DNA of 64,000 bases, taken from positions 82,161 through 146,160 of the forward strand of contig CAZMCQ010000002.1 in NCBI GenBank assembly GCA_964565195.1. Direction: 5' to 3'. Of the stretch, positions 7,374 to 52,711 are shown one piece after another. Numbering within the stretch: position 1 is the stretch's first letter; each line of letters begins with the position of its first letter. Made by a program: the position numbers and the translations under genes. This stretch comes from an uncultured Candidatus Saccharibacteria bacterium (GTDB taxonomy: Bacteria; Patescibacteriota; Doudnabacteria; UBA920; 2-01-FULL-46-14). Under the pieces are notes generated by a model. It saw nothing but the letters and a program-made list of their open reading frames with translations. It was not told the DNA's origin and searched no databases.

Positions 7374-8450
7374 ATGAAACTAATTTTTGTCACTCGAAAA
7401 GTTGACCGCGGCGATGCCATAACCGGCTTTGTTTTTGGGTGGATAAATGCTCTGGCGGCAAAGGTGGAAAAACTTTATGTTATCTGCCAGGAAAAAGGAG
7501 ACACATCAGGATTGCCAAGGAATGTTGAGGTTTATTCTTTTGGCAAAGAACTCGGCTACGGCAGGATTAGGCAAGGTTTGAAGCTTTGGAATTTGGTATT
7601 TGGAATTTGCAAAAACTCTGAAGGAGTTTTTGCCCATATGCATCCAATTTATGCGATCATTGCCGGTCTCGCTGCGCGTCTTCGTGGCAAGAGAGTAATT
7701 CTTTGGTACACGCACAAGGCCGTGGATTGGAAATTGAGAATTGCACACGCGCTGGTTAATGAAGTTTTGACAGCGAGTGCGGAAAGTTTTCGGTTGCCAT
7801 CGAAAAAAGTTAAGGTTGTCGGCCACGGCATTGACCTTGAAAAGTTCCACCCCCTCCCATCCCTCCCCCCTCGAGGGGGAGGAAAGGTGGGGGGGAAATT
7901 TAGAATAGCTTCCATTGGCCGCATCAGTCCGGTGAAAGATTATGAGACTCTGATCAAAGCCGCGGATATACTTCAAGAAAGTGGTATCAAGGATTTTGTC
8001 ATTGAGATCTATGGCCGGATCGGTTTGTCGGAGCATCAGGGCTATTACGATTCGCTTGTGGAATTTGTGAACAATGCCAATCTGGACGAGATTGTGAAGT
8101 TTCAGGGCGAACTTGATTATGGCTATGTTGATGAGATTTATAATGAAGCAGATCTTTTTGTAAATTTGAGTCAGACCGGCAGCATTGATAAAGCCGTGCT
8201 CGAAGCCGCAGCTTGTGAGACGCTGGTTTTGACTTCGAACGAAGCCTTTGAGAAGATTCTCAACGAGATTTCACCGCTTTTATTTTTTCGCCGCGATCAC
8301 CCCGAGGATTTAGCTGCGAAGATTGAGGGGATAAAATCATTATCCGGTGAAGTGCGCGTGAAGATTGGCAGGCAGCTTCGCAAAATGGTCGAGCAAAATC
8401 ATAATTTGAACAATTTGGCTGCGAAGATTGTCGAGGAGTTTAAATCATGA
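7374..8450 (+). CDS. GT4-family glycosyltransferase (carries an in-frame palindromic element insert in the interdomain linker)
   Basis: GT-B architecture. Insert HPLPSLPPRGGGKVGGK is at the same linker position as in the gene at 2322. Confidence 0.75.
   Translation: MKLIFVTRKVDRGDAITGFVFGWINALAAKVEKLYVICQEKGDTSGLPRNVEVYSFGKELGYGRIRQGLKLWNLVFGICKNSEGVFAHMHPIYAIIAGLAARLRGKRVILWYTHKAVDWKLRIAHALVNEVLTASAESFRLPSKKVKVVGHGIDLEKFHPLPSLPPRGGGKVGGKFRIASIGRISPVKDYETLIKAADILQESGIKDFVIEIYGRIGLSEHQGYYDSLVEFVNNANLDEIVKFQGELDYGYVDEIYNEADLFVNLSQTGSIDKAVLEAAACETLVLTSNEAFEKILNEISPLLFFRRDHPEDLAAKIEGIKSLSGEVRVKIGRQLRKMVEQNHNLNNLAAKIVEEFKS
7847..7895. repeat. GC-rich palindromic element copy 4 (intragenic, in-frame in a GT4 gene)
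   Basis: CCACCCCCTCCCATCCCTCCCCC-ctcgag-GGGGAGGAAAGGTGGGGGGG. Confidence 0.8.
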
Positions 8451-11251: not shown

Positions 11252-11422
11252 TTAAAATAAACTTTAAACGTATCATAGATCAAAAACCCCTTTTTGTGAA
11301 GACCCAGTCTTGTACAATTATCCCGTGACGGTTTGGGGTAGTTGATTTTTTGTTGAATTCCGCCGCCGATATCAGCAGTGGATTTTTTGTTGTTTTTTTG
11401 CTATATTTAGTCGCGTATTTCA

Positions 11423-13228
11423 ATGACCGAAGACCGGAAACAATATATTGTGGGCATCAATCTGCCCATGAAGTCGCGTTGCCATGAAAGCGGGGTGGCG
11501 CTTTTGGATATGGAGGGCAGTATATTATTTGCAATCAATGAGGAGCGGCTGTCGAGAAAGAAGCAAGACGGCGATTTCCCGGAAAAATCCATAGCCGCGA
11601 TGTTTGCTCATACTGGGATAAAGAAAGAAGAGATTGCCGTGGTGGCGGTGCCGACACTGTCGTTTTGGGGCAAGGTCGGGCGTGTGATGCAATTTTTGTG
11701 GCGTGAGCGGCGAAGGAGAATGTTAAATCCGGCAACGTATTTCGCTATTTGGCGCGTGGCTTTTGGCAAAAAGAGATCAGGGAGATTGGGGAAATCGGGG
11801 GAAATAAACCAGGAGCAGGATCCGTTTATGATGCGCTACCAGTGGCGCGATTTCATAAAAAAGAATTTTCCGAACGCGAAGATAAAAATGATTGACCACC
11901 ATCTCTGCCACGCCGCCTCGGCATACTACACCAGCCCCTGGGAAAACGCCTTGATTATCACCGCTGACGGCGCGGGCAATATGCTTTCTTCAATCGTCGC
12001 CGTCGGAGAAAAAGGACGGATCAGAATTTTGGACAAAACCTTCGTCCCGCACTCGCCGGGAAGTTTTTGGGGGAGTATTACCAAGGTTTGCGGTTTCCGT
12101 TCCGGGACGCGCCACGGCGGCAAAACCACTGGTCTGGCCGCGGCCGGCGACCCAAATAAACTTATTTATAAAATGCGGCAGATTATCTCCTGCGATGGAA
12201 TTCGATTTCACGTTCGCGAAGAGTTGCTGTTTGATCCGCAGCGTCTCATCCCGAACTGGTCGAGTTATGAGCCAGAGCGGCTTAAGAATTTCCTGGGAGA
12301 AAATTCGCGCGAGGATGTGGCGGCGGCGGCGCAGAAACGGCTCGAAGAAATCATCGTGGAACTTGTGCGAAATGCTCGCAAGGTCGTGCCTTTTGACAAA
12401 GTCGTAATGGCTGGCGGCACTTTTGCCAACGTGCTTGTTAATGAAAAAGTTTTGGAACTTCCGGGAATTGACGATGTCTACATTTGCCCGGCCATGTCAG
12501 ATGGTGGTTTGGCCGTGGGTGCCGCGCTGTATACCCTTTCTAGGATTAAAAAATTTTTGCCGCGGCCGATTGGCAATGTTTATCTGGGGCCGAAATATTC
12601 GGAAGGTGCAATTAAGAATTATTTAGAAAAAATTGGCGCGAAATTCGAGCTGATGAATCGGCCAGCGACAAAAATTGCTGAGCTCATTCATAACAACAAG
12701 GTCGTCGCGTTCTACCAGGGCCGGATGGAGTGGGGGCCGCGCGCGCTGGGCAACCGTTCAATTCTTTACGCGGCCAAAGACCCGAAAGTAAATGACTGGC
12801 TCAATAAAAAGCTGCGGCGCAGCGAGTTTATGCCCTTTGCCCCGGTGACTCTGATTGAGCACATTAAAGACTGCTACATCGGCATTGCGGACGACCCCTT
12901 GGCGGCAAAATATATGACCATTACCTATCAGTGCACAGACCAAATGAAGCGCGAATCCCCGGCGTGCGCGCACCTCGACGGCACCGCGCGTCCGCAGGTG
13001 ATAAAGCGCGAGGATAATCCATATTATTACGACATTTTGAGCGAATACCACAAACTTTCCGGTATTCCGACCATCATAAATACGAGTTTCAATATGCACG
13101 AAGAGCCGATCGTCTGTCAGCCGGAAGACGCAGTCCGCGCCTTTCTTGACTCTGGGCTTGACTGCCTGGTAATGGAGAATTATCTTTTAAGACTGGAAGA
13201 AAATGAACCCCGTTCAATCCAACTTTGA
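11423..13228 (+). CDS. Carbamoyltransferase, NodU/CmcH family (O-carbamoylation of a sugar)
   Basis: 601 aa. N-terminal Kae1/YgjD-like fold (IVGINLPMKSRCHESGVALL, HHLCHAASAY) and a C-terminal carbamoyltransferase domain. Confidence 0.75.
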   Translation: MTEDRKQYIVGINLPMKSRCHESGVALLDMEGSILFAINEERLSRKKQDGDFPEKSIAAMFAHTGIKKEEIAVVAVPTLSFWGKVGRVMQFLWRERRRRMLNPATYFAIWRVAFGKKRSGRLGKSGEINQEQDPFMMRYQWRDFIKKNFPNAKIKMIDHHLCHAASAYYTSPWENALIITADGAGNMLSSIVAVGEKGRIRILDKTFVPHSPGSFWGSITKVCGFRSGTRHGGKTTGLAAAGDPNKLIYKMRQIISCDGIRFHVREELLFDPQRLIPNWSSYEPERLKNFLGENSREDVAAAAQKRLEEIIVELVRNARKVVPFDKVVMAGGTFANVLVNEKVLELPGIDDVYICPAMSDGGLAVGAALYTLSRIKKFLPRPIGNVYLGPKYSEGAIKNYLEKIGAKFELMNRPATKIAELIHNNKVVAFYQGRMEWGPRALGNRSILYAAKDPKVNDWLNKKLRRSEFMPFAPVTLIEHIKDCYIGIADDPLAAKYMTITYQCTDQMKRESPACAHLDGTARPQVIKREDNPYYYDILSEYHKLSGIPTIINTSFNMHEEPIVCQPEDAVRAFLDSGLDCLVMENYLLRLEENEPRSIQL

Positions 13229-13267
13229 TATAATGCTTACCATAATTAATTATAAGGATCGAACGAG

Positions 13268-14425
13268 GTGAAGATTTGCGTAGTCGCCTATAAATTTGGC
13301 ACGGAACAGGAAATCGGCGAGCATCTCGGCACTTATCACTATTTCATTGAGAAGATGCGCCGGCTGGCGCGGCTTGGAAATGAAGTCTATGTGATCGCGC
13401 CGTGGCTTTCGTATTTCAAAAAAGGCAGCACCGAAGTTGATGGCGTAAAAATTCTGCGCTATTATCCGCCATTTCAGAACCGCCCCAAGTTGAGAGTTTT
13501 GAATAATTTATTGCGCTGGTGGTATATCAAAGCAACGCAGATGCAAGTTTCAAAATTGGACAAACAAACTTCGTTGGATATTATCTACGTCTGGCAGGCG
13601 CGGGAGACTGGTTATGCCGTGGCACAAATTGTCGACAAGCTTCGCGCGCCCTTTGTTTTCCGGCAGATCACGGCTTGGGAGTGGCATTTCCAAAAAGGTA
13701 TGCCGGATCGCGCGGCGCAGATGAAATTTGCCAAAGTGATCTATGACACGGCAAAGAAAGTTGTGTTTGTGAGCCGCGCGGCTTCCGAAGAAGGGCGCCG
13801 TGCCGGACTTTCAGAAGAAAAAATTGCGATAATTGGCGTTGGAATAGAAACCGATTTTTTTCAGCCGCGGGATGTGAAAATAGAATGGGATGTTTCGTTC
13901 ATTGGGCGGATCAATTTTGCCGAGAAAGGCATTGGTTATCTGCTGGAGGCAATGCCGGAGATTGTTAAGATTATTCCCAGCGCCAAACTTGGCATTATCG
14001 GCGGCGGTGGCGAGACACCACGGATGCGGGAGTTTATTAAAGATTTAGGAATCGAAAAAAATGTGGAACTGCTCGGGCAACAGCCGTTTTCCAAGCTGCC
14101 TGCATATCTAAATTCCTCCAAAATTTTAGTTGTGCCTTCTGCGTGGGTCGAACATTTCGGCCAGGTGACGGTGGAGGGTATGGCTTCAGGAATTCCAGTC
14201 GTGAATACGAACATCGGCGGCAGTCCGGAGATAAATACCGACGGCCAGACCGGGCTCATCGTTCCGCCAAAAGATTCACATGCTTTGGCCGCAGCAATCA
14301 TAAAATTACTGACCGACGATGAATTAAGGCAAAGAATGGGCCGCGCGGCGCGCGAGCGCGTCCTGCAAAATTACACATATGATGTTTTGGTCAATAAATT
14401 CCTGGAGCTTGTAATAAATGTCTAA
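13268..14425 (+). CDS. GT4-family glycosyltransferase (GTG start)
   Basis: EHFGQVTVEGMASGIPVVNTNIGGSPEI GT4 motif, 385 aa. Confidence 0.75.
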   Translation: MKICVVAYKFGTEQEIGEHLGTYHYFIEKMRRLARLGNEVYVIAPWLSYFKKGSTEVDGVKILRYYPPFQNRPKLRVLNNLLRWWYIKATQMQVSKLDKQTSLDIIYVWQARETGYAVAQIVDKLRAPFVFRQITAWEWHFQKGMPDRAAQMKFAKVIYDTAKKVVFVSRAASEEGRRAGLSEEKIAIIGVGIETDFFQPRDVKIEWDVSFIGRINFAEKGIGYLLEAMPEIVKIIPSAKLGIIGGGGETPRMREFIKDLGIEKNVELLGQQPFSKLPAYLNSSKILVVPSAWVEHFGQVTVEGMASGIPVVNTNIGGSPEINTDGQTGLIVPPKDSHALAAAIIKLLTDDELRQRMGRAARERVLQNYTYDVLVNKFLELVINV

Positions 14426-15122
14426 AGTCGTCTTCATTTCCGGCGGCAGCCGCGGCATCGGCGCCGCGACCGTGCTACGTTTCGCGAGGGAGAAGTTTGA
14501 TATTGCCTTTACTTATAATGAAGGACAGGGCGAAGCTTCGGCGGTTGCGGAAAAAGCAAAAAGTTTGGGATCGCCTGAAGTTTTGACCATGCGACTTGAT
14601 ATGGAAAATGACGAAAATATCAGAAACGTTGTAAAAATCGCCCACGAGAAGTTTGGCAAGATCGACATTCTGATAAACAATGCGGGAACTTTTGAACGGG
14701 GAACGCTTTCCGAGCAGACTTTTGCTGTCATCCATCGCCAGATTGCGGCCAATCTCGAAGGTATGATCAAGCTCACCCACGAATTTTTGCCCTACGTCAA
14801 AGAAGCCATCATAAATATTGCAAGTGTGGTTGGGTTTCTCGGCAAACCTCGAATTTCCGTCTACACAGCGACCAAATGGGGCGTGCGCGGTTTTACCAAA
14901 TCCCTCGCCAGAGAGTACCCAGATCTACGCATATACGTCGTTAATCCCGGGCTGACCGATACCCGAATGGGCCGGCCCGAGGGCATGCCGGCGGAAAAAG
15001 TGGCCGAAACAATTTTTGACGCGGCGACTGGGAAACGCCGCCTTGCCAGCGGCAGTGATATTGCGGTAAAATCAAATCTTTACTTCTTAAAGTCGTTGAT
15101 GAAAAAATTATTGGGACGATGA
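14418..15122 (+). CDS. Short-chain dehydrogenase/reductase (SDR) family oxidoreductase
   Basis: VVFISGGSRGIGAAT glycine-rich NAD(P)-binding motif, NNAG, YTATKWGVRG (YxxxK). Confidence 0.8.
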   Translation: MSKVVFISGGSRGIGAATVLRFAREKFDIAFTYNEGQGEASAVAEKAKSLGSPEVLTMRLDMENDENIRNVVKIAHEKFGKIDILINNAGTFERGTLSEQTFAVIHRQIAANLEGMIKLTHEFLPYVKEAIINIASVVGFLGKPRISVYTATKWGVRGFTKSLAREYPDLRIYVVNPGLTDTRMGRPEGMPAEKVAETIFDAATGKRRLASGSDIAVKSNLYFLKSLMKKLLGR

Positions 15123-16291
15123 GGATCATCTATTTAGATAGTGGACGACTACCGACCGAAAAAGCGCACGGCCTGCAGATCATGAAGATGTGCGAAGCGT
15201 TTGCGGCAGGTGGCGCGGAAGTGGAGCTCGTCATTTCTTCCAGAAAAAACCCTGGAGCCGGCGATCCGTTTGAGTATTATCAAGTCAAGCGCAATTTCGA
15301 AATTACCAGGCTTTGGTCGCTGGATCTGGTCAATATTGTTTCAAAATACGGCAGTTGGCTGTCGCGATTAAGTTTTATTTTCACAGCGAAGCGATATTTG
15401 AAATCTCAAAGGTATGATGTTTTGTATCTTCGTGAACATATGAGTGGCCTGTTTTTCCGAAACTTTGTTTTGGAACTCCACATTCTCCCGCAAAAAATCC
15501 GACGTGCGGATTTAAAAATTTGGCAGAAGGCGAGAAAGCTCGTTGTGCTTACCAGCCACACGAAGAAGTTGCTCGTCGAGCACGGAATTCCTGAAGGAAA
15601 AATTCTGGTCGCACCGGATGCGGTTGAAGCCGCAAAATTCGAAATTCGAAATTCGAAATTCGAAACGAGGACAGCATTGGGACTGCCGCAGGATAAAAAG
15701 ATCGTGATGTACACTGGGCATGTCTATGAGTGGAAAGGCGCAGATGTATTGCTGGAAGCCGCTCGATTGTCGTCATTGCGAGCGCCAGCGAAGCAATCCC
15801 AAAGTGGCGAGATTGCTTCGTCGACCGAGGCTCCTCGCAATGACCAAGATATGCTTTTCATCTTCGTCGGCGGCACGGACTGGGATATGCAGAGATTCCG
15901 GCCGCTGGCCGAAGGGCTTGCCAATGTTTTGTTGCTCGGCCAGAAACCCCATGACTTGATTCCAAAATATCTGGGCGCAGCGGATATTTTAGTTTTGCCC
16001 AATTCCGGCAAATCCGATATTTCCAAATACTACACCTCGCCGCTGAAAATGTTTGAATACATGGCTGCTGGCAAACCAATCGTGGCCTCGGATCTGCCGG
16101 CTATCCGGGAGGTTTTAAATGAAAATAATGCTGTCTTGGTCAGGCCGGACGACCCGCAAGCTCTGGCACAAGGCATAAAAAGAATTTTGGAAAATCCGGA
16201 TTTGGGGACGAAACTGGCCAATCAGGCGCGTCTTGACGTGGCCAGCTACAACTGGCCAGCTCGCGCGCAAAAGATTATGATGTCATTATGA
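15119..16291 (+). CDS. GT4-family glycosyltransferase carrying a 7-bp tandem repeat and a 73-bp palindromic insert inside the CDS
   Basis: GT-B C-terminal motif (TSPLKMFEYMAAGKPIVASDLPAIREV). Internal segments FEIRNSKFET (from the AAATTCG x4 repeat) and SSLRAPAKQSQSGEIASSTEAPRNDQDM (from the palindrome). Confidence 0.7.
   Translation: MRIIYLDSGRLPTEKAHGLQIMKMCEAFAAGGAEVELVISSRKNPGAGDPFEYYQVKRNFEITRLWSLDLVNIVSKYGSWLSRLSFIFTAKRYLKSQRYDVLYLREHMSGLFFRNFVLELHILPQKIRRADLKIWQKARKLVVLTSHTKKLLVEHGIPEGKILVAPDAVEAAKFEIRNSKFETRTALGLPQDKKIVMYTGHVYEWKGADVLLEAARLSSLRAPAKQSQSGEIASSTEAPRNDQDMLFIFVGGTDWDMQRFRPLAEGLANVLLLGQKPHDLIPKYLGAADILVLPNSGKSDISKYYTSPLKMFEYMAAGKPIVASDLPAIREVLNENNAVLVRPDDPQALAQGIKRILENPDLGTKLANQARLDVASYNWPARAQKIMMSL
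15635..15667. repeat. Heptanucleotide tandem repeat (AAATTCG)x4 plus a partial unit, inside a GT4 CDS
   Basis: Four perfect 7-bp units at 15635-15662 followed by AAACG. The unit length is not a multiple of 3. Confidence 0.85.
15772..15844. repeat. 73-bp imperfect palindrome of a second type, in-frame inside a GT4 gene
   Basis: GTCATTGCGAG...CGAAGCAATC..(center)..GATTGCTTCG...CTCGCAATGAC. Outer and inner arm pairs are reverse complements. Confidence 0.7.
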
Positions 16292-17226
16292 AAATTTTAA
16301 TTACGGGCGGGGCCGGTTTTATCGGCTCCAATTTGGTCAATGTGTTAATAAAAAAAGACAAGGTTGTGGTTATCGACAATATGTTTTTGGGCAAGAAAGA
16401 ATTTATTCAATCAGCGATTGATGGTGGGCGGGTGGAATTTTATGAGCAGGATCTTTTGGATTTCCCCAAGACGCTCGAGGTATTTGAGAAGCATAAGTTT
16501 GATTTGGTTTTTCATATGTCCGCGAATTCCGACATCTCCTATGGCACGAAAAACACGGATTGGGATTTAAAGCAGGAGACGCTGGTAACCTACAATGTTT
16601 TGGAGAGCATGCGCCGGACCGGGGTGCAAAAGATAGTTTTTGCCTCCACTTCGGCAATCTACGGAGAAGCGCCGGTCAAACCGATTGCCGAAGATTACGG
16701 GCCGCTTTTGCCGATCTCTTTTTATGGCGCCGGCAAGCTCGCCAGCGAGGGACTGATCACCGCGTTTTGCCATAATTACGATTTGCAGGCGTGGCTGTTC
16801 CGCTTTGCCAATATTGTCGGCCGCAATGGTACGCACGGCGTGCTCGTGGACTTTATCAAAAAATTGCGGGCGAATCCGAAAGTTCTGGAAGTCTTAGGCG
16901 ACGGGAGGCAGGCGAAACCCTATCTGCATGTGGACGACTGCGTGGCTGGGATGCTCTTTGGGTATACCAATTCGCGCGAAAAGGTAAACTACTACAATTT
17001 AGCTTGCGAGGGGGCAACGCCAGTAGCAAAAATTGCCGAGCTGGTGATTGCAGCTATGAAGCTGGAAAACGTCGCGATTCATTACACCGGCGGCGCGCGC
17101 GGCTGGGCCGGCGACGTGCCGCAGGTGCGGCTTGATGCAGACAAACTTGCGCGCCTTGGCTGGAAGGCCAGTATGAGTTCCGACGAGGCAGTGAACAGAG
17201 CGATTAACGATCTCTTGAAGCAATGA
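16288..17226 (+). CDS. NAD-dependent epimerase/dehydratase (extended SDR)
   Basis: ILITGGAGFIGSNLV Rossmann motif and YGAGKLASE YxxxK motif. Confidence 0.75.
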   Translation: MKILITGGAGFIGSNLVNVLIKKDKVVVIDNMFLGKKEFIQSAIDGGRVEFYEQDLLDFPKTLEVFEKHKFDLVFHMSANSDISYGTKNTDWDLKQETLVTYNVLESMRRTGVQKIVFASTSAIYGEAPVKPIAEDYGPLLPISFYGAGKLASEGLITAFCHNYDLQAWLFRFANIVGRNGTHGVLVDFIKKLRANPKVLEVLGDGRQAKPYLHVDDCVAGMLFGYTNSREKVNYYNLACEGATPVAKIAELVIAAMKLENVAIHYTGGARGWAGDVPQVRLDADKLARLGWKASMSSDEAVNRAINDLLKQ

Positions 17227-18545
17227 AAGCAGTGATTGTCGCGGGCGGCAAAGGCACGCGCATGGCCAAACTTGGAGCAGTTATTCCCAAAGCGCTCATT
17301 CCGATCGCGGGCAAGCCGCTGATTGCTTACCAGATTGAAAATCTAAAAAGGCATGGATTGAGAGATGTCCTCCTCATCATCAATCACTTAGGTGAGCAGA
17401 TAAAAAAATACTGCGGCAACGGCCGGCGGTTCGGCGTAAAAATTACCTATTATGAGGAGCAAAAACCGCTCGGCACTGCCGGCGCGATCAAACTTCTCGA
17501 AAAAAAATTAAAAAATGATTTCATCGTCATCTATGGCGATGTTTTGATAAATGTCGATTTTACGCGCCTTATTAAGCAGCATAATCGAAACAAACTGACT
17601 GCAAAAAATTTGGCCGGCACCCTCGTCCTCCACCCCAATGACCACCCGTTCGACAGCGATCTCGTCGAGGCAGATGAAAACGGGCGCATTACCAGATTTA
17701 TTTCCAAACCCCATCGCGCAGGATTTTATTTTCGCAATCTCGTCAACGCGGGGTTGTATGTTTTGACGCCGCGTATTCACCGTTTTATTCCGAAAAATAA
17801 GGCGGCGGATTTTGGCAAACATATTTTCCCGCGCGTTTTAGAGCAAAACGGGGCGCTGTTCGCTTACAATACGCCGGAATACCTCAAAGATATGGGTACG
17901 CCCAAGCGGCGGAGAGAAGTCGAGATCGCCGTTCGGTCAGGCAAATTCAAAAGGAGCAATTTATCTCACAAACGGCCGGCGATTTTTATGGATCGCGATG
18001 GCGTGATCAATGAGGAGGTGGGCGACATTCGCCGCATAGAGGATTTCAAGCTGATTCCGAATTCCGCAAAGGCGATCAAACTCATCAATCAGCATAACTA
18101 TTTCGCGGTGGTGATTTCCAATCAGCCCCAGGTAGCCAAGGGTTTTTGTCGTTATGAGGATATTTTGGAATTCCATAAAAAAATGGAAACCCTGATTGCA
18201 GAGGGAGAGGGTGCCAAACTCGACGCCATCTATTTCTGTCCGCATCATCCAGACAAAGGCTTTCCCGGAGAAAATAAAAAATACAAGATTATCTGCGAGT
18301 GCCGAAAACCCAAAACCGGCCTGGCTCGCCGGGCCATTCGCGATCTCAACATTGCTCTCAAAAACAGCGTGATGATCGGCGACTCGACCCGCGATGCCAA
18401 GCTCGCGGAGAACCTCGGGATCCGATTTATCGGGGTCAAAACCGGCGAGGGAGTGAGGGACGGGATTTATAAGCTGAAAGCAAAGCCGAAAGTTTATAAA
18501 AATCTGCTCGCTGCAGTGCGCGTAATAGGCTTGCCTAAGTCCTGA
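17223..18545 (+). CDS. Bifunctional D-glycero-D-manno-heptose 1-phosphate guanylyltransferase (HddC-like) / D,D-heptose 1,7-bisphosphate phosphatase (GmhB-like)
   Basis: N-terminal sugar-phosphate nucleotidyltransferase motif (VIVAGGKGTRMAKLGAVIPKALIPIAGKPLI). C-terminal HAD-IIIA GmhB motifs (FMDRDGVIN, VISNQPQVAKG, YFCPHHPD, CECRKPKTG). Confidence 0.8.
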   Translation: MKAVIVAGGKGTRMAKLGAVIPKALIPIAGKPLIAYQIENLKRHGLRDVLLIINHLGEQIKKYCGNGRRFGVKITYYEEQKPLGTAGAIKLLEKKLKNDFIVIYGDVLINVDFTRLIKQHNRNKLTAKNLAGTLVLHPNDHPFDSDLVEADENGRITRFISKPHRAGFYFRNLVNAGLYVLTPRIHRFIPKNKAADFGKHIFPRVLEQNGALFAYNTPEYLKDMGTPKRRREVEIAVRSGKFKRSNLSHKRPAIFMDRDGVINEEVGDIRRIEDFKLIPNSAKAIKLINQHNYFAVVISNQPQVAKGFCRYEDILEFHKKMETLIAEGEGAKLDAIYFCPHHPDKGFPGENKKYKIICECRKPKTGLARRAIRDLNIALKNSVMIGDSTRDAKLAENLGIRFIGVKTGEGVRDGIYKLKAKPKVYKNLLAAVRVIGLPKS

Positions 18546-18568
18546 AAGGGTGTTAAATTATCTAGGTT

Positions 18569-19552
18569 ATGATTATCTCCAAAACGCCACTGCGGATCAG
18601 TTTTGTAGGCGGGGGCAGCGATTTGCGGTCCTTTTATGAACAGGCCGAAGAGGGTGGCGCAGTTGTTACCACAGCCATCAACAAACACATCTACGTCAGC
18701 GTCAATAAAAAATTTGACAACAGCATCCGCGTCAGTTACTCGAAGACCGAGGAGGTCGAGTACGCGGAAGATCTGGAACATCCGATCGTTCGCGAGGTGC
18801 TGAAGCTGCTGAATCTGTACGGTCTGGAGATTACGTCCGTTGCGGATATTCCCTCGCGGGGAACCGGCCTGGGCTCCTCGAGCGCGTTTACGGTCGGGCT
18901 GTTGCGCGCCCTTCACGCTTACCAGCGGAAATTTATCACGGCCGAGGAACTTGCGGAGCAGGCCGCCCGGATCGAAATTGAGATCTTGAAAGAGCCGATC
19001 GGCAAGCAGGATCAGTATGGCACGGCCATCGGGGGACTTAAGCTGTTGCGGTTTCATCGCGACGGACAGGTGAGCGTGGAGCCGATTTTTTGTCTGCGCG
19101 AGACCTGCCACGCGCTGGAAAAGAATATGATGCTCCTCTACACTGGCCTCACCCGCAGCGCTGGGGCGATTCTTTCGCGGCAGCAGGCCAACATGGCGGC
19201 GGATCAGAAAAAACATGAGCTTATGAAAAAGATGGTGCAGCTCGCGCACGATTTGCACCGCGAGTTAAAACAGAACCGACACGAAACCTTTGGCGACATT
19301 TTGCACGCCAACTGGATGTACAAAAAAGAACTGGCAGAAGGCATCACGAGTCCGGAGATTGACCTCTGGTACGAGACCGCGCGTCGCCATGGCGCCACCG
19401 GCGGCAAGCTCTTGGGCGCGGGCGGCGGCGGATTTTTGCTGATTTACGCGCCGCAGGAAAAACACGAAACGATCAAACGGGCGCTGCCTGACCTTCGCCG
19501 CGTGGATTTTCAGTTCGAGAATCAGGGCAGCCAGATTATTTTTATTCATTGA
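18569..19552 (+). CDS. GHMP-family kinase, D-glycero-alpha-D-manno-heptose 7-phosphate kinase (HddA)-like
   Basis: N-terminal KTPLRISFVGGGSDL motif and GHMP ATP-binding motif PSRGTGLGSSSA. Confidence 0.75.
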   Translation: MIISKTPLRISFVGGGSDLRSFYEQAEEGGAVVTTAINKHIYVSVNKKFDNSIRVSYSKTEEVEYAEDLEHPIVREVLKLLNLYGLEITSVADIPSRGTGLGSSSAFTVGLLRALHAYQRKFITAEELAEQAARIEIEILKEPIGKQDQYGTAIGGLKLLRFHRDGQVSVEPIFCLRETCHALEKNMMLLYTGLTRSAGAILSRQQANMAADQKKHELMKKMVQLAHDLHRELKQNRHETFGDILHANWMYKKELAEGITSPEIDLWYETARRHGATGGKLLGAGGGGFLLIYAPQEKHETIKRALPDLRRVDFQFENQGSQIIFIH

Positions 19553-19553
19553 T

Positions 19554-20141
19554 ATGGAAATAAAAGACCATCCGCAAAATTATTTATTCAGACTAGATAA
19601 GGTCCTTGCGAGCATTGACCGCGCCAAGCTGGCGACGCTTATCGAAAAGATCGCGTCCTTCAGCAAGACGGACCATACGATTTTTATCGCGGGCAATGGG
19701 GGCAGCGCTGGCACGGCCTCGCACATGGCCTGCGATCTCGGCAAGACCATCCTCATTGACAGTCTCGGCGAGCGGCCCTATCGTCTCCGCGCGATTTCCC
19801 TCACTGACAATGTCCCGCTCCTTACCGCATTGTCCAATGATTATGGCAATGAGTATATTTTTTCCGAGCAGCTGAAAAGCTTTGGCCGCGAGGGCGATAT
19901 GCTCATCGTCCTGACCGGCAGCGGCAACTCGCCGAATATCATCCAGGCCGTGCTCGCCGCCAAAGCCATGGGCATCCATACCTATGGACTGCTCGGATTT
20001 GGCGGCGGAAAAATTAGGGAAATTTTGGATGATATGCTGTTAATTGATTCAGACGATTATGGACCGGTGGAAGATGCCCATATGGTTATTAATCATCTCA
20101 TCACTGATTGGTTTCGGAATCAAAACCGTGGCGCAAGTTAA
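19554..20141 (+). CDS. gmhA: Phosphoheptose isomerase (GmhA, SIS domain)
   Basis: TIFIAGNGGSAGTASHMACDL SIS motif, about 195 aa. Confidence 0.8.
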   Translation: MEIKDHPQNYLFRLDKVLASIDRAKLATLIEKIASFSKTDHTIFIAGNGGSAGTASHMACDLGKTILIDSLGERPYRLRAISLTDNVPLLTALSNDYGNEYIFSEQLKSFGREGDMLIVLTGSGNSPNIIQAVLAAKAMGIHTYGLLGFGGGKIREILDDMLLIDSDDYGPVEDAHMVINHLITDWFRNQNRGAS

Positions 20142-49204: not shown

Positions 49205-49240
49205 TACAATAAACACAAATTCGAAGCACGAAATCCTAAA

Positions 49241-49312
49241 TCCGAAACAAATTTAAATGTTCAAAATTCAAAATTCTAAACGTTTCGAATTTCGAAATTC
49301 GAATTTCGGATT
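49241..49312. repeat. AAATTC/TTCGAAA-type repeats including a perfect 20-nt palindrome TTCGAATTTCGAAATTCGAA, upstream of pilB
   Basis: Seen directly in the 117-bp pilB upstream region. Sequence-related to the heptamer repeat at 15635. Confidence 0.7.
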
Positions 49313-49321
49313 TTAACGCTT

Positions 49322-51067
49322 ATGGCACTCGCATCCACTGATTTAAAAAAAATTCTCGTCGGTCAGAGTGTCTTGAGCGAAGGCGATTTTGACAAACTCG
49401 AACGGGAAGCGCGCGACAAGAAACAAAGTCTGGCGAATTACCTGGTCTTCCGCAAGATTATTCCCGAGGAGCGTTTGGCGAAAATGGTCAGCGATTTTCT
49501 GTCCGTACCCATCGTTGATCTTTCCTCTCTCAAAATCCCGCAGGAAGTTTTGAAGATCATTCCCGAGCCGATCGCGCGGCGCCATCAGGTCGTCGCCTTC
49601 AACAAGAAGGGCAACGAGCTGGATCTCGCCATGACTGACCCCGAGGATTTGCAGACGCGCGAGTTTGTCAAAAAGAAAACCGGCTTTGTAATCGTGCCTT
49701 TTCTTGCGACCAAGACCGGCATGGATAACGCCCTAGCGCAATACCACTCGAGTTTAAAAGCCGAATTCGAAAAGATTCTGGAGGACAAAAAACAAGAGCA
49801 GCCAAAAAGCTCCACGGAGCCCGGAGCCGAGCTCAAAAAAATGGCGGAAGAGATTCCGGTCGTGCGGGTTGTGGATACGCTGCTTGAGTACGCAATTTTT
49901 GAAAACGCTTCGGACATCCACATCGAGCCGCAGGAGAAAGAGGTAACGGTGCGCTACCGCATTGATGGCATTCTTCATGACGTGATGACGCTGCCCAAAG
50001 TGATCCAGCCCGCGCTGGTCGCCCGGCTCAAAGTGCTTTCCAGCCTCAAGATTGACGAGCATCGCCTTCCCCAGGACGGCCGATTCAAATTGCAGACCGA
50101 ACAGTACAACATTTCCTTCCGCGTTTCGACCATTCCAGTTTTTGACGGGGAAAAAGTCGTGCTGCGGCTCCTTGACGAGGGCGCGCGGGCCCTTACCTTT
50201 GAGGAGCTCGGGTTTGCCCGGTCAGCGCTCGATATTATCAAACGCAACCTCACGCGCTCGCACGGCATGACGCTCATCACCGGCCCGACCGGCTCGGGAA
50301 AATCCACCACGCTTTATACCATTCTCACGAAGCTCAATGTGAAGGGCGTCAACATCAGCACGATTGAGGATCCGATCGAATACCGCATTCCCGGCGTGAA
50401 TCAGATGCAGGTCAACCCAAAAATCGGACTGACGTTTGCCGTGGGTCTGCGCGCGCTCCTGCGCCAGGACCCGAACATCATCATGATCGGCGAAATCCGC
50501 GACCTCGAAACCAGTGAGGAGGCCATCCACGCCGCGATGACCGGCCACATCGTGCTCTCCACGCTGCACACGAACAACGCGGCCGGCGCGATTCCGCGCC
50601 TCCTCGACATGGGCGTCGAGCCATACCTTATTGCCTCTACAGTGAATACCGTCGTCGGGCAGCGCCTGGTCCGCAAGGTTTGCCAGGATTGCAAAGTGGC
50701 GAAAAACCTTGACGGCGAGACGTTCGCCAGTCTCAAGCGCGACTTTGATCTGGACAATCTGATTGCCATCATGAAAAAGGAAGGCGTGCTCGAGCCGGCC
50801 GTTGCCTCCCTGGAACAAGTTGAGTTTTACGAAGGGCAGGGTTGTGAAAAATGCGGCCGGTCCGGCTTCCGTGGCCGGATGGGGATCTATGAGGTGCTCG
50901 ATATTACCGAGGCCGTTGCGAGATTAATCCTGGAACGCGGTACGACCAGCCAGATTGAGAATACGGCCGTGAAGAGTGGCATGGTCCTCATGTGGCAGGA
51001 CGGCTTTCTCAAAGCCCATTTGGGTTTTACCACAATCGCCGAGGTTCTCCGGGTTTCCAAAGAGTAA
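49322..51067 (+). CDS. pilB: Type IV pilus assembly ATPase PilB (GspE family)
   Basis: N-terminal GspII domain, Walker A GPTGSGKSTT, the tetracysteine-like CQDC..CEKCGRSG motif, Walker B and His box. Confidence 0.9.
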   Translation: MALASTDLKKILVGQSVLSEGDFDKLEREARDKKQSLANYLVFRKIIPEERLAKMVSDFLSVPIVDLSSLKIPQEVLKIIPEPIARRHQVVAFNKKGNELDLAMTDPEDLQTREFVKKKTGFVIVPFLATKTGMDNALAQYHSSLKAEFEKILEDKKQEQPKSSTEPGAELKKMAEEIPVVRVVDTLLEYAIFENASDIHIEPQEKEVTVRYRIDGILHDVMTLPKVIQPALVARLKVLSSLKIDEHRLPQDGRFKLQTEQYNISFRVSTIPVFDGEKVVLRLLDEGARALTFEELGFARSALDIIKRNLTRSHGMTLITGPTGSGKSTTLYTILTKLNVKGVNISTIEDPIEYRIPGVNQMQVNPKIGLTFAVGLRALLRQDPNIIMIGEIRDLETSEEAIHAAMTGHIVLSTLHTNNAAGAIPRLLDMGVEPYLIASTVNTVVGQRLVRKVCQDCKVAKNLDGETFASLKRDFDLDNLIAIMKKEGVLEPAVASLEQVEFYEGQGCEKCGRSGFRGRMGIYEVLDITEAVARLILERGTTSQIENTAVKSGMVLMWQDGFLKAHLGFTTIAEVLRVSKE

Positions 51068-52293: not shown

Positions 52294-52309
52294 TACTACG
52301 AAATACGAA

Positions 52310-52711
52310 ATGGTACGAAAGTACGAAAAAAATTCAGGGTTTTCACTCATCGAGGTGATTATAGCGTTGTTTGTGATTTCGGCCGCGCTTTTGCTTTATG
52401 CCGGATCATATGCCACAGTGCGTCTCACGCGGGCCACACGCGACGAGACGCAGGCTTATCGGATCGCGGCGCGGCAGCTCGAACTGCTGCGCTCCACAGC
52501 GTTTAGCGCCCTGCCGGCCTCGGGGCAGATCTTTGATACCAATTTGGCAGCTCTACCTTCCGGCAGCGGCAGCTACACGGTCGCGGATTATCCCGATACA
52601 AGCAGCCGTCTGAAGGTCGCCTCGAGCACAGTGAGCTGGACTCGCGATGGGACCGGGCGGTCAGTGAATCTGCAAACGTTGATTGGCGAGACCGGTTTCA
52701 ATCCACCATGA
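52310..52711 (+). CDS. Prepilin-type N-terminal cleavage/methylation domain protein (pilin or minor pilin)
   Basis: Class III signal KNSG/FSLIEVIIALFVISAALLLYAG with a conserved Glu at +5. Confidence 0.7.
   Translation: MVRKYEKNSGFSLIEVIIALFVISAALLLYAGSYATVRLTRATRDETQAYRIAARQLELLRSTAFSALPASGQIFDTNLAALPSGSGSYTVADYPDTSSRLKVASSTVSWTRDGTGRSVNLQTLIGETGFNPP

What the first reader, a model, noticed from the sequence alone, without database searches (positions are those of the whole stretch)
15635..15667. Heptanucleotide repeat (AAATTCG)x4 inside a glycosyltransferase CDS: candidate slipped-strand phase-variation switch
Four perfect 7-bp tandem units lie within the GT4 reading frame, encoding KFEIRNSKFET. 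Gain or loss of one unit shifts the frame and would switch the enzyme off. Slipped-strand phase variation of surface-glycan glycosyltransferases is well known in other bacteria. Here it sits in a locus that may glycosylate pilins or the cell surface.
Basis: partly seen in the sequence, partly recalled or inferred. Interest (0 to 1): 0.65.

Follow-up and report, generated by a model that had tools for sequence, protein, structure and literature searches.

The report
Repeat-driven on/off switch in glycosyltransferase
A perfect 7-base repeat inside a sugar-transferase gene of an uncultivated Candidatus Doudnabacteria (CPR) bacterium has 4 copies here (gene intact) and 3 copies in a 99.96%-identical public genome (gene broken), so it behaves as a slippage on/off site for a surface-sugar enzyme, of a kind I could not find reported for this bacterial group.

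Summary
(AAATTCG)x4.4 lies at 15635-15665, perfect, inside the GT4 glycosyltransferase ORF 15119-16291. It encodes the interdomain linker KFEIRNSKFET. The lag-7 identity run is 24, against at most 13 in 100 shuffles.

A public MAG (GCA_016198105.1, Candidatus Doudnabacteria) matches window 5119-25707 at 99.956% identity, with 2 SNPs and one gap. That gap is exactly one AAATTCG unit. The MAG has 3 units, and its gene is split into 193-aa and 204-aa ORFs. The 193-aa product equals my prediction for a 3-unit allele. A third assembly (SRR12113383) breaks inside the array.

Context tempers the claim. Seven orthologs carry same-site arrays in phase with the conserved (K/R)-F codons, and strong coding heptamer arrays in CPR glycan loci are almost all in GT4 genes. 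However, similar ~4-unit arrays also sit stably in frame in essential genes (SecA, TrmD, a tRNA synthetase). Other orthologous arrays showed no copy-number variation.

Shown: slippage-type ON/OFF alleles at this array. Inferred: reversibility, rate and adaptive value. It is a new member of a known kind, SSR contingency loci.

The parts
15635..15665 (+). Perfect heptanucleotide array (AAATTCG)x4 plus AAA. This is the slippage site. Four units keep the frame (ON), and the 3-unit allele in GCA_016198105.1 is OFF.
   Evidence: array and its significance. (3-unit allele in a 99.956% identical genome). (frame consequences).
15119..16291 (+). GT4 (GT-B fold) glycosyltransferase gene, 390 aa, carrying the array at 44-47% of its length.
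   Evidence: ORF; Pfam; AlphaFold2 pLDDT 90.8, two Rossmann-like domains; PimA-type nearest solved relatives; no NCBIfam equivalog.
15119..15634 (+). Coding region for the N-terminal (acceptor-side) domain. It is all that remains, plus a short out-of-frame tail, in 2-, 3-, 5- or 6-unit alleles.
   Evidence: (Glyco_transf_4, aa 21-170), (P0268, 193 aa).
15666..16291 (+). Coding region for the end of the linker and the C-terminal (nucleotide-sugar-binding) domain. It is out of frame in the 3-unit allele, where it is annotated as a separate 204-aa ORF that is otherwise identical.
   Evidence: Glycos_transf_1, aa 181-371; 203/204 identical; the only difference is the start codon.
15772..15844 (+). 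Separate element in the same gene: a nested perfect hairpin inserted in frame in the second variable loop (aa 222-242). It is not part of the switch.
   Evidence: arms of 11 and 10 nt, 100% complementary; dG -23.6 kcal/mol, z -5.5; about 20 extra residues relative to homologs; the only segment with pLDDT below 50.
49283..49313 (+). Same repeat class and the reverse-complement unit family (TTTCGAA x4.4, 87%). It is intergenic and ends 8 nt before the pilB-like ATG at 49322. It contains the 20-bp palindrome TTCGAATTTCGAAATTCGAA (49284-49303). It is not part of the switch, but it shows the unit is used elsewhere in this genome.
52297..52328 (+). Same repeat class: (TACGAAA)~4 overlapping the start of the pilin gene (ATG 52310) and encoding its leader peptide.
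   Evidence: N_methyl motif.
7585..7609 (+). Same repeat class: (TTTGGAA)x3.6, 88% matches, inside another GT4 gene (7374-8450). It is identical in both MAGs.

Best explanation
The array is a slippage-prone heptanucleotide simple-sequence repeat. It was built from the gene's own conserved Lys-Phe codons (AAA TTC plus G) in the DNA that encodes the linker between the two Rossmann domains of a GT4 glycosyltransferase. The gene lies in a Candidatus Doudnabacteria surface-glycan cluster.

With 4 units the frame is kept and the linker has its native length (ON, 390 aa). Slipped-strand mispairing during replication adds or removes one 7-nt unit. That shifts the frame and terminates translation 10-20 codons later. 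The result is an N-terminal domain without the nucleotide-sugar-binding domain (OFF), so one sugar-transfer step is lost.

Shown:
- the array itself;
- its frame logic;
- a natural 3-unit OFF allele in an otherwise 99.96% identical genome;
- no secondary decay of the OFF allele;
- recurrence of in-phase arrays at the same site in orthologs.

Inferred:
- that switching is frequent and reversible enough to act as a contingency (phase-variation) switch;
- that ON/OFF heterogeneity of this glycan is advantageous, for example in host attachment or phage escape.
For: (1) L211 (GCA_016198105.1) against window 5119-25707: 20,589 aligned columns, 99.956% identity, 2 mismatches and 1 gap of 7 nt inside the array. 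TRF gives 3.4 copies there against 4.4 here. Under uniform placement, the only indel in 20.6 kb would fall in a 31-nt array with probability of about 0.0015.

(2) P0268 (193 aa) ends in KFEIRNSKRGQHWDCRRIKRS, exactly the 3-unit product predicted. The C-terminal ORF is 203/204 identical to window aa 187-390, so the OFF allele is young.

(3) The 390-aa allele is independently on record on a 147,636-nt NCBI contig. A Logan assembly of SRR12113383 is 100% identical over 4,245 nt and ends inside the array after 4 units.

(4) In seven lineages (window, L001, L002, L003, L206, L207, L208), period-7 arrays occupy the same linker site in phase with the conserved (K/R)-F codons. Each unit is that lineage's own KF codons plus one base. 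This indicates local amplification or homogenisation, not a foreign insert.

(5) In 1.43 Mb of CPR glycan loci, 12 of 13 strong coding period-7 arrays lie in GT4 genes, which are 18.6% of coding bp. The 13th is also a Glyco_transf_4 fragment. p = 2e-8, or 5e-5 without the discovery loci.

(6) Array-encoded residues 173-183 form the interdomain linker in a confident model. Their length matches that of array-free orthologs, so 4 units is the functional state.

(7) Among all target-family genes in the fetched loci, the only split gene found is this one, and it is split at the array.
Against: - Only two consensus states (3 and 4 units) are seen. No reversion, no 5-unit allele and no read-level mixture were observed (the cluster has only these two members).
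- Four units is few. It passes the permissive threshold of 3 or more units for heptamers (PMC2651432) but not the 5-or-more cut-off that PhasomeIt applied to the longer-unit repeats it screened (tetra- and pentanucleotides) (PMC6321876). Proven heptanucleotide phase-variable tracts have 13-38 units.
- The array is mid-gene, not near the 5' end.
- Orthologous and paralogous arrays looked stable. The P0001, P0003 and P0120 clusters (about 20 near-identical sequences) show no copy-number variants.
- Array length is conserved across orthologs that are 45-59% identical.
- A CPR SecA array is unchanged in length between proteins 78% identical.
- The same array class sits in frame in essential genes.
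- The 3-unit allele could therefore be a single inactivating deletion in a dispensable gene and not one state of a switch.
Confidence: 0.62

Rival explanations
1. The array is a tolerated heptamer array with no switching role. It is one of many short heptamer tandem arrays that arise by polymerase slippage in CPR and other bacteria and persist wherever a protein linker or loop tolerates them. The 3-unit allele is a one-off loss-of-function deletion in an accessory gene (incipient pseudogene), not one state of a reversible, selected switch.
For: - (AAATTCR)3-5.6 arrays occur in frame in SecA, a class I tRNA synthetase, TrmD, MiaA, GcvP, PurL, Mfd and UvrD-like genes. They appear as a net insertion in TrmD and as a same-length replacement in MiaA.
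- The CPR SecA loop is filled with decayed arrays. P0148 and P0149 (78% identical) keep the same length.
- No copy-number variation was seen in three orthologous clusters.
- Other truncated relatives of this GT family exist with frameshifts away from arrays (P0275, P0272), so the family is often inactivated anyway.
- Heptamers are reported as the over-represented long SSR unit in bacteria (PMC4692102).
Against: - The only indel between two genomes that differ by 2 SNPs in 20.6 kb is an in-register unit loss in this array. This shows locally elevated instability.
- The OFF allele has no secondary damage.
- Strong coding arrays in CPR glycan loci are concentrated in GT4 genes and absent from about 1,100 other genes.
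- A perfect array of native linker length implies recent unit-wise turnover, which passes through frameshifted states.
Confidence: 0.28
2. One of the two alleles is an assembly or consensus artefact, and there is no real polymorphism.
For: All sequences are metagenome assemblies. A Logan contig ends inside the array, which shows that assemblers can struggle at this site.
Against: - The array (24-31 nt) is much shorter than Illumina reads and typical k-mers.
- The flanks are identical, and the difference is exactly one unit in register.
- The 4-unit state is seen in two independent assemblies (the window's 147,636-nt contig and SRR12113383).
- Homologous arrays exist in independent assemblies of other species.
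Confidence: 0.05
3. The array is a mobile or templated block (an RPE- or MITE-like mini-insertion) that landed in the gene, as the hairpin element 100 nt downstream probably did.
For: - The same AT-rich units occur sharply bounded in contigs of 22-65% GC.
- A composite string ...CCGAAACAAAT... recurs in 10 or more unrelated loci, including the window's pilB upstream region and a SecA insert.
- Perfect-run lengths peak at 3.6-4.7 units and do not decay from 3.0.
Against: For this array there is no net insertion relative to orthologs. The unit equals the gene's own conserved KF codons, and units in orthologs track their own synonymous codon choice. The 3-versus-4 difference is a unit-wise change, not presence or absence of a block.
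Confidence: 0.04
4. The heptads are a cis-acting nucleic-acid signal, such as a binding site for a heptad-reading protein or a translation signal, as proposed for TAACTGA repeats upstream of start codons. The coding copy would be functional at the DNA or RNA level.
For: Related arrays lie directly upstream of the pilB-like start and over the pilin start in this window. They also lie immediately before ATGs in metagenome loci. MacGregor 2015 proposes translational regulation for such sets (PMC4679880).
Against: - There is no significant RNA structure (z -1.15) and no Rfam match.
- The array is mid-ORF.
- Orthologs use different units at the same site, which argues against a conserved recognition sequence.
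Confidence: 0.02

Closest known systems
Tetranucleotide- or homopolymer-repeat phase-variable LOS/LPS glycosyltransferases of Haemophilus, Neisseria and Campylobacter (e.g. lic2A, lgtC, lex2A; reviewed in PMC2651432 and PMC6321876; gene names from my own knowledge)
   Same: An intragenic SSR whose unit is not a multiple of 3, in a surface-glycan glycosyltransferase. Gain or loss of one unit frameshifts the gene. ON and OFF alleles are found in near-identical genomes.
   Different: The unit is 7 nt and there are only 4 copies, against typically 6-30 or more. The tract sits mid-gene in the interdomain linker and not near the 5' end. The organism is an uncultivated CPR bacterium. Rate and reversibility are not measured.
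Heptanucleotide SSRs of H. influenzae hmw1A/hmw2A, including the intragenic (AATTTTG)14 with a frameshift in strain PittAA (PMC2651432)
   Same: A 7-nt AT-rich unit. The intragenic case causes a frameshift attributed to repeat-number change.
   Different: Those tracts have 13-38 units, are mostly in promoters, and modulate the level of an adhesin. Here there are 4 units inside a GT.
TAACTGA heptamer direct-repeat sets of Beggiatoaceae, Cyanobacteria and Bacteroidetes (MacGregor 2015, PMC4679880)
   Same: Sets of 2-6 heptamer copies, many per genome, mostly just upstream of start codons and occasionally inside ORFs at tolerant positions. The function is unknown. The window's arrays at 49283 and 52297, and the metagenome arrays, behave in the same way.
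   Different: The unit is different, and the forward orientation of TAACTGA carries stop codons. No ON/OFF copy-number polymorphism in a gene was reported there.
Cyanobacterial STRR and other over-represented heptameric SSRs (Rehm 2015, PMC4692102, citing Mrazek 2007 and Mazel 1990)
   Same: A genome-wide excess of period-7 tandem repeats over other long periods. In my 1.43 Mb of loci there are 23 strong arrays of period 7, against 7 of period 8, 2 of period 10 and 1 of period 9.
   Different: Those are mainly intergenic and, in the cases studied, G-rich. Here they are AT-rich, translated, and concentrated in GT4 genes.
Hypervariable 9-mer (PTD) repeat gene of a Gracilibacterium (Sieber 2019, PMC6851277)
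   Same: A CPR bacterium with slipped-strand mispairing invoked and population-level repeat variation that breaks assemblies.
   Different: The 9-nt unit is in frame, so it gives length and sequence variation of a protein, not ON/OFF switching.
Rickettsia palindromic elements (my own knowledge)
   Same: Short repeats tolerated in frame within protein-coding genes, including essential ones. This is relevant to the neighbouring hairpin insert (15772-15844) and to the array class in SecA, TrmD and similar genes.
   Different: RPEs are 100-150-bp palindromic mobile elements. The array here is a tandem amplification of resident codons with no net insertion.

Membership tests
SSR-mediated phase-variable (contingency) locus | Tandem repeat with a unit not divisible by 3 inside the reading frame (or in the promoter), so that unit changes alter expression | tested here: met
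   Period 7, inside ORF 15119-16291. Alleles with 2, 3, 5 or 6 units truncate the product at 187-200 aa.
SSR-mediated phase-variable (contingency) locus | Repeat-number polymorphism between otherwise near-identical genomes, including out-of-frame alleles | tested here: met
   3 units (OFF) in GCA_016198105.1 against 4 units (ON) in the window, at 99.956% identity over 20.6 kb. Only two states were seen.
SSR-mediated phase-variable (contingency) locus | Tract long enough for hypermutability | tested here: inconclusive
   4.4 units. This is above the permissive threshold of 3 or more (PMC2651432) and below the 5-or-more cut-off that PhasomeIt applied to the longer-unit repeats it screened (tetra- and pentanucleotides) (PMC6321876). 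One slippage event against 2 SNPs per 20.6 kb suggests a rate far above the per-base rate, but n = 1.
SSR-mediated phase-variable (contingency) locus | High-frequency, reversible switching within a clonal population | not testable with these tools
   This needs read-level or culture data. The Logan contig break inside the array is only suggestive.
SSR-mediated phase-variable (contingency) locus | Host gene acts on a surface or interaction structure | tested here: met
   A GT4 gene in a cluster with seven GT4 genes in all (this one included), PMT_2, Wzy_C, Bac_transf and heptose-pathway-like genes, next to type IV pilus genes. The actual substrate is unknown.
Short heptameric tandem-repeat class (STRR / TAACTGA-like sets) | 7-nt unit, about 2-6 copies per set, several sets per genome, many next to start codons and some in ORFs at tolerant positions | tested here: met
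   The window has period-7 arrays at 7585, 15635, 49229, 49260, 49283 and 52297. Of 82 metagenome arrays, 81 have 3.0-5.6 units. Placement is shown.
In-frame mobile mini-insertion (RPE-like) | Net insertion relative to orthologs, with a sequence unrelated to the resident codons | tested here: not met
   Linker length equals that of array-free orthologs. The unit is the gene's own KF codons plus 1 nt, and orthologs' units follow their own codon choice.
GT4 family glycosyltransferase (GT-B fold) | N-terminal Glyco_transf_4 and C-terminal Glycos_transf_1 domains above Pfam thresholds, with a two-Rossmann-domain fold | tested here: met
   Pfam scores of 29.7 and 82.2 bits, above the cut-offs of 28.5 and 26.4. 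AlphaFold2 pLDDT 90.8 with alternating beta/alpha in two domains. PimA-type PDB hits. There is no NCBIfam equivalog, so the specific activity is unknown.

The most novel reading that the evidence does not exclude
CPR (Patescibacteria) bacteria carry a lineage-wide set of phase-variable glycosyltransferase genes. In this reading, heptanucleotide arrays amplified from conserved Lys/Arg-Phe codons at three permissive sites of GT4 enzymes (the interdomain linker, the loop before the FVGG strand and the helix after it) act as low-copy contingency switches. They would diversify the cell-surface or pilin glycan of these episymbionts against hosts and phages. The same heptamer-specific slippage process would also be a general source of 7-residue-periodic peptide insertions in CPR proteins, including essential ones such as SecA.
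Probability: 0.3. Interest if true: 0.75.

Novelty: new member of a known kind. Interest (0 to 1): 0.58.

Why it matters
CPR bacteria are ultra-small, mostly uncultivated episymbionts. Their surface and pili mediate attachment to hosts, and how they vary those surfaces is largely unknown. I found no report of frameshifting SSR switching in this group. Four papers mention both phase variation and the Candidate Phyla Radiation, none describing this, and no paper pairs 'phase-variable' with Patescibacteria.

This locus gives a concrete case that can be checked at read level: ON (4-unit) and OFF (3-unit) alleles of a glycan-cluster glycosyltransferase in near-identical natural genomes.

The case also generalises into a testable screen, because period-7 arrays recur at three defined sites of GT4 genes across CPR lineages. 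For annotators, it is a warning that 'split' or 'partial' GT genes in CPR MAGs may be OFF-phase alleles and not assembly errors or pseudogenes. It also shows that short heptamer arrays are a recurrent source of in-frame peptide inserts.

Tried and rejected
(1) The full-length protein search returned nothing above 59% identity and missed the same-species cluster. Only an N-domain query found it.

(3) I looked for copy-number variants among near-identical members of the P0001, P0003, P0120, P0043 and P0020 clusters and found none.
- P0130 is a T-to-A nonsense change of the same length at a contig tip.
- P0131 is a chimeric join at a hairpin element.
- The 363-aa versus 373-aa difference is a start-codon call.

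(4) The hypothesis that heptamer arrays are GT4-specific is rejected in general. None of 82 AAATTCR arrays from metagenomes are in GT4-like ORFs, and 20 of 20 examined sit in diverse genes, many of them essential.

(5) The 'seed continuum' hypothesis (the KF[EKD]I codons grading gradually into arrays) is rejected. Lag-7 scores across 62 orthologs are bimodal, 18-21 against 4-13.

(6) The first enrichment test used an HMM built partly from array-bearing ORFs, which is circular. I redid it with the family HMM only.

(7) An RNA-structure or known-RNA explanation is not supported. The fold z-score is -1.15, and Rfam finds only 3 tRNAs in the window.

(8) A literature search for the exact repeat or peptide strings found nothing.

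(9) A scan of all fetched loci for other split target-family GT4 genes found only the L211/L212 control. The HMMs were family-specific, so paralogs may have been missed.

(10) The other array-adjacent proteins of this genome (the pilin and the GT4 at 7374) show no variants in the collection.
Full report
**1. Observation**

The window carries (AAATTCG)x4 plus AAA at 15635-15665. TRF gives period 7, 4.4 copies, 100% matches and score 62. The array lies in the + strand ORF 15119-16291 (390 aa). Pfam assigns an N-terminal Glyco_transf_4 domain (aa 21-170) and a C-terminal Glycos_transf_1 domain (aa 181-371). The array encodes KFEIRNSKFET (aa 173-183), exactly between the two domains.

The longest lag-7 identity run in the window is 24 nt. 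The maximum over lags 4-11 in 100 dinucleotide shuffles is 13, and about 2e-10 such runs are expected by chance.

**2. The gene and its setting**

An AlphaFold2 model built on 20 homologs is confident (pLDDT 90.8) and shows the two-Rossmann-domain GT-B architecture. Residues 171-186 form the interdomain connection: a short helix, a loop and a helix. The nearest solved relatives are PimA-type GT4 enzymes. No NCBIfam equivalog is reached, so the specific reaction is unknown.

The surrounding genes form a large glycan cluster:
- six further GT4 genes;
- a PMT_2 glycosyltransferase;
- a carbamoyltransferase, an SDR and epimerases;
- genes resembling a nucleotide-heptose pathway;
- a Bac_transf initiating transferase;
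- a Wzy_C/TPR protein.

This cluster is followed by type IV pilus genes: a PilB-like ATPase, PilC, a pilin and PilM. Exact-sequence look-ups name the organism as Candidatus Doudnabacteria, a member of the Patescibacteria/CPR.

**3. Frame logic**

Simulating unit changes gives these products:

| Units | Product |
|---|---|
| 2 | 187 aa (truncated) |
| 3 | 193 aa (truncated) |
| 5 | 194 aa (truncated) |
| 6 | 200 aa (truncated) |
| 1 | 383 aa (in frame) |
| 7 | 397 aa (in frame) |

The truncated products are the N-terminal domain plus a short out-of-frame tail. In an alignment with 19 homologs, the array-encoded segment aligns without gaps to the family's linker (consensus KFxIxxxKxEAR; F174 and R184 invariant, K180 nearly so). 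Four units therefore give the native linker length.

**4. The decisive result**

A search with only the N-terminal domain plus linker found P0268, a 193-aa protein 100% identical to the query. It is annotated in NCBI as a glycosyltransferase of a Candidatus Doudnabacteria MAG. Its C-terminus, KFEIRNSKRGQHWDCRRIKRS, is exactly the product I had predicted for a 3-unit allele.

The encoding contig (GCA_016198105.1, JACQJL010000006.1, 59,991 nt) is fully syntenic with the window. There the GT is called as two ORFs of 193 and 204 aa. BLASTN of 20,582 nt of that contig against window 5119-25707 gives 99.956% identity over 20,589 columns, with 2 mismatches and one gap. Both mismatches lie in the downstream epimerase, at 16314 and 16384. 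The gap is 7 nt, in register, inside the array. TRF reports (AAATTCG)x3.4 there.

The C-terminal ORF is 203/204 identical to window residues 187-390, the single difference being the annotated start codon. The OFF allele therefore carries no secondary damage.

The 390-aa allele is itself on record on a 147,636-nt NCBI contig, presumably the window's source. The 90% cluster holds only these two alleles. A third, independent assembly (Logan, run SRR12113383) is 100% identical to window 11418-15662 and stops inside the array after four complete units. This is compatible with graph branching at a heterogeneous repeat but does not prove it.

If indels fell uniformly, the only indel in 20.6 kb would land in a 31-nt array with probability of about 0.0015, and an exact unit in register is less likely still. 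This is the signature of slipped-strand mispairing. It yields one ON and one OFF allele in genomes that differ at about 1 base in 10,000.

**5. Is this array special, or one of many?**

(a) Same site, other species. I obtained DNA for six orthologs 45-59% identical to this protein and found period-7 arrays at the same linker site in all six. All are in phase with the conserved (K/R)-F codons:

| Locus | Units from the (K/R)-F codon |
|---|---|
| L001 | AAGTTTA AAGTGCA AAGTGAA AAGTTAA |
| L208 | AAGTTTA AGGTTAA AAGTGAA AAGTTTA |
| L002 | CGATTTA AGATTTA TGATTTA AGATTTA |
| L003 | AGATTTC AGATTTT AGATTTC AGATTTA |
| L206 | AAATTCG AAATCCG AAACACG AAATCCG |
| L207 | AAATTCA AAATTCA GGATTCC AAATTCG AAATTCA |

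Each lineage's unit is its own KF/RF codon pair plus one base. Units are more alike within a lineage than between lineages. This means local amplification and occasional homogenisation, followed by decay. The window's array is the only perfect one. Across 62 orthologs the lag-7 signal at the linker is bimodal (18-21 of 21 against 4-13), so arrays are discrete states and not a gradient.

(b) Other sites and paralogs. Two further sites host such arrays. One is the loop before the FVGG strand, for example (AAATTTC)x4.4 perfect in L001 and (AATTTCC)x4.3 in L003 and L209. Roughly 15 of the 120 homologs show the 7-residue-periodic signature there, several of them reading NFQFPISNFQ. P0092 and P0039 differ there by exactly 7 aa, which is 3 units. 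The other is the helix after that strand (L022 (AAATTCA)x5.1 perfect, L007, L024, L206). GT4 paralogs from other subfamilies also carry linker arrays (L078, L055, L007, L024, L209).

(c) Enrichment. In 1.43 Mb from 84 loci (mostly CPR), period 7 dominates strong short-period arrays: 23 at TRF score 45 or more, against 7 for period 8, 2 for period 10 and 1 for period 9. With a non-circular classifier, 12 of 13 strong coding arrays lie in GT4 genes, which make up 18.6% of coding bp. The 13th is a Glyco_transf_4 fragment by Pfam. p = 2e-8, or 5e-5 when the discovery loci are excluded.

**6. Evidence that tempers the claim**

I scanned metagenome contigs for three or more perfect AAATTCR units, without regard to frame. 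I analysed 82 arrays in 80 loci. Their properties are as follows.
- Perfect-run length is 3.0-5.6 units (one of 7.0), peaking at 3.6-4.7.
- Host contigs span 22-65% GC.
- None is in a GT4-like ORF.
- Of 20 ORFs with deeply internal arrays, Pfam identifies SecA, a class I aminoacyl-tRNA synthetase, TrmD, MiaA, GcvP, PurL, Mfd, a UvrD/AddA-type helicase, a MiaB-like enzyme, the xanthine-dehydrogenase Mo subunit and others. In several of these the array lies between Pfam domains.

In TrmD the array is a net 12-residue insertion. In MiaA it replaces a loop with no length change. The SecA host is itself a CPR bacterium. CPR SecA proteins have a 36-70-residue variable loop filled with decayed array peptides, and two SecAs 78% identical keep the same array at the same length.

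About 20 near-identical members of three orthologous GT clusters show no copy-number variants. The two suspicious fragments proved to be a nonsense substitution at a contig tip and a chimeric join.

A ~4-unit heptamer array is therefore not by itself hypermutable enough to be a switch. Published cut-offs place 4 units in a grey zone. A survey of H. influenzae SSRs uses 3 or more units (PMC2651432). PhasomeIt uses 5 or more units for the longer-unit repeats it screened, which were tetra- and pentanucleotides (PMC6321876). Proven heptanucleotide tracts have 13-38 units.

**7. Synthesis**

Shown:
- a perfect intragenic heptamer array built from resident codons;
- correct frame logic;
- an in-register 3-unit OFF allele, free of secondary decay, in a near-identical genome;
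- recurrence of in-phase arrays at three permissive sites of GT4 genes across CPR lineages.

Inferred: that unit changes are frequent and reversible enough, and ON/OFF heterogeneity useful enough, to call this a contingency switch.

The main rival is that this is a tolerated product of a general heptamer-slippage process, and that the 3-unit allele is a single inactivating deletion in a dispensable gene. One argument favours more than passive tolerance. A perfect array of native linker length cannot be built unit by unit without passing through frameshifted states. That path is open only to genes whose temporary loss is tolerated or favoured, and GT4 genes are where such arrays accumulate in these loci.

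I put about 0.6 on the slippage ON/OFF switch reading, with the adaptive part being the weaker half. I put about 0.3 on the neutral reading, and small residues on artefact, mobile block and cis-signal readings.

**8. Comparison with what is known**

Mechanistically this is the classical SSR contingency locus of Haemophilus, Neisseria and Campylobacter glycosyltransferases. It differs in unit length (7 nt), low copy number, mid-gene linker position and phylum.

As a sequence class it belongs with over-represented bacterial heptameric repeats: STRR, GGGAATC in Xanthomonas (PMC4692102) and TAACTGA sets of 2-6 copies near start codons (PMC4679880). The function of these is unknown.

In CPR, the nearest report I found is an in-frame 9-mer hypervariable repeat in a Gracilibacterium (PMC6851277). 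Searches for phase variation together with CPR or Patescibacteria found no frameshifting SSR switch.

Verdict: a new member of a known kind, in a group where it had not been described, with a generalisable pattern that can be tested on existing read data.

Noticed in passing
window 15772-15844: A nested perfect hairpin (arms of 11 nt and 10 nt; DNA dG -23.6 kcal/mol, z -5.5) is inserted in frame in the second variable loop of the same GT. It corresponds to aa 222-242, the only disordered segment of the model. P0104 has a related insert at the same loop, and L002 has a different GC-rich hairpin there. The contig L085 is a chimeric join exactly at that hairpin. This suggests a dispersed palindromic (REP/RPE-like) element tolerated in frame.
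   Followed up: partly
window 49205-49320: The intergenic region upstream of the pilB-like ATPase (ATG at 49322) consists of three mini heptamer arrays: CGAAATC x2.7, TTCAAAA x3 and TTTCGAA x4.4. It includes a perfect 20-bp palindrome TTCGAATTTCGAAATTCGAA at 49284-49303. The last array uses the reverse-complement unit family of the GT array.
   Followed up: partly
window 49231-49253; L094, L106, L133, L141, L175, L182, L209 863: A composite string, (GAAATCC)n-GAAACAAAT-(TCAAAAT)n, recurs in 10 or more unrelated loci. It includes a 23-mer identical between the window's pilB upstream region and an in-frame insert in a CPR SecA gene. The origin (common descent or mobility versus convergence) is unexplained.
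   Followed up: partly
window 52297-52328: A (TACGAAA)~4 array overlaps the start of the pilin gene (ATG at 52310) and encodes its leader peptide MVRKYEKNSG before the G|FSLIEV processing motif. The pilin is identical on 3 contigs in the collection.
   Followed up: partly
metagenome loci L086-L165 (e.g. L094, L158, L091, L087, L149, L122, L092, L112): (AAATTCR)3-5.6 arrays are translated in frame inside housekeeping and essential genes (SecA, aaRS, TrmD, MiaA, GcvP, PurL, Mfd, UvrD-like), in several cases between Pfam domains. The host contigs span 22-65% GC. Perfect-run length peaks at 3.6-4.7 units and does not decay from 3.0.
   Followed up: partly
P0148-P0267 (CPR SecA homologs), loop after ...LYDENF: CPR SecA has a 36-70-residue hypervariable loop repeatedly filled with heptamer-array-derived peptides in various states of decay. 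Heptamer arrays look like a general source of loop expansion in CPR proteins.
   Followed up: partly
L036 1390-1440, 5753-5831, 6248-6278: A Parcubacteria contig carries non-coding heptamer arrays of up to 11.3 units (GAATTAA) within 5 kb. Longer expansions therefore do occur outside genes.
   Followed up: no
window 16314 and 16384: The only two SNPs between the window and GCA_016198105.1 over 20.6 kb lie 70 nt apart at the 5' end of the epimerase gene immediately downstream of the switchable GT. One causes F33I.
   Followed up: no
window 7374-8450 (array 7585-7609; linker about aa 160-185): Another GT4 gene carries a weaker (TTTGGAA)x3.6 array and a Pro/Gly-rich insert (PLPSLPPRGGGKVGG) in its linker. 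A Logan contig (P0289) begins right after that insert.
   Followed up: partly
P0275, P0276, P0272: Several relatives of this GT are truncated by frameshifts on long contigs. One example is P0275, 212 aa on a 42.7-kb contig, which is broken just after the linker. The family seems to be inactivated often in nature. DNA could not be fetched because the look-ups were exhausted.
   Followed up: no
window 17223-20141: The genes downstream of the GT resemble a nucleotide-activated heptose pathway: an HddC/GmhB-like fusion, an HddA-like kinase and a GmhA-like isomerase. All score below NCBIfam cut-offs. They hint at the sugar handled by this cluster.
   Followed up: partly
L206 about 2600-2650 (P0120 gene): A GC-rich heptamer array (GCAGGTT)x~4.6 at site 3 of an ortholog again starts right after a Lys-Phe codon pair. 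The phenomenon is therefore not restricted to AT-rich units.
   Followed up: no
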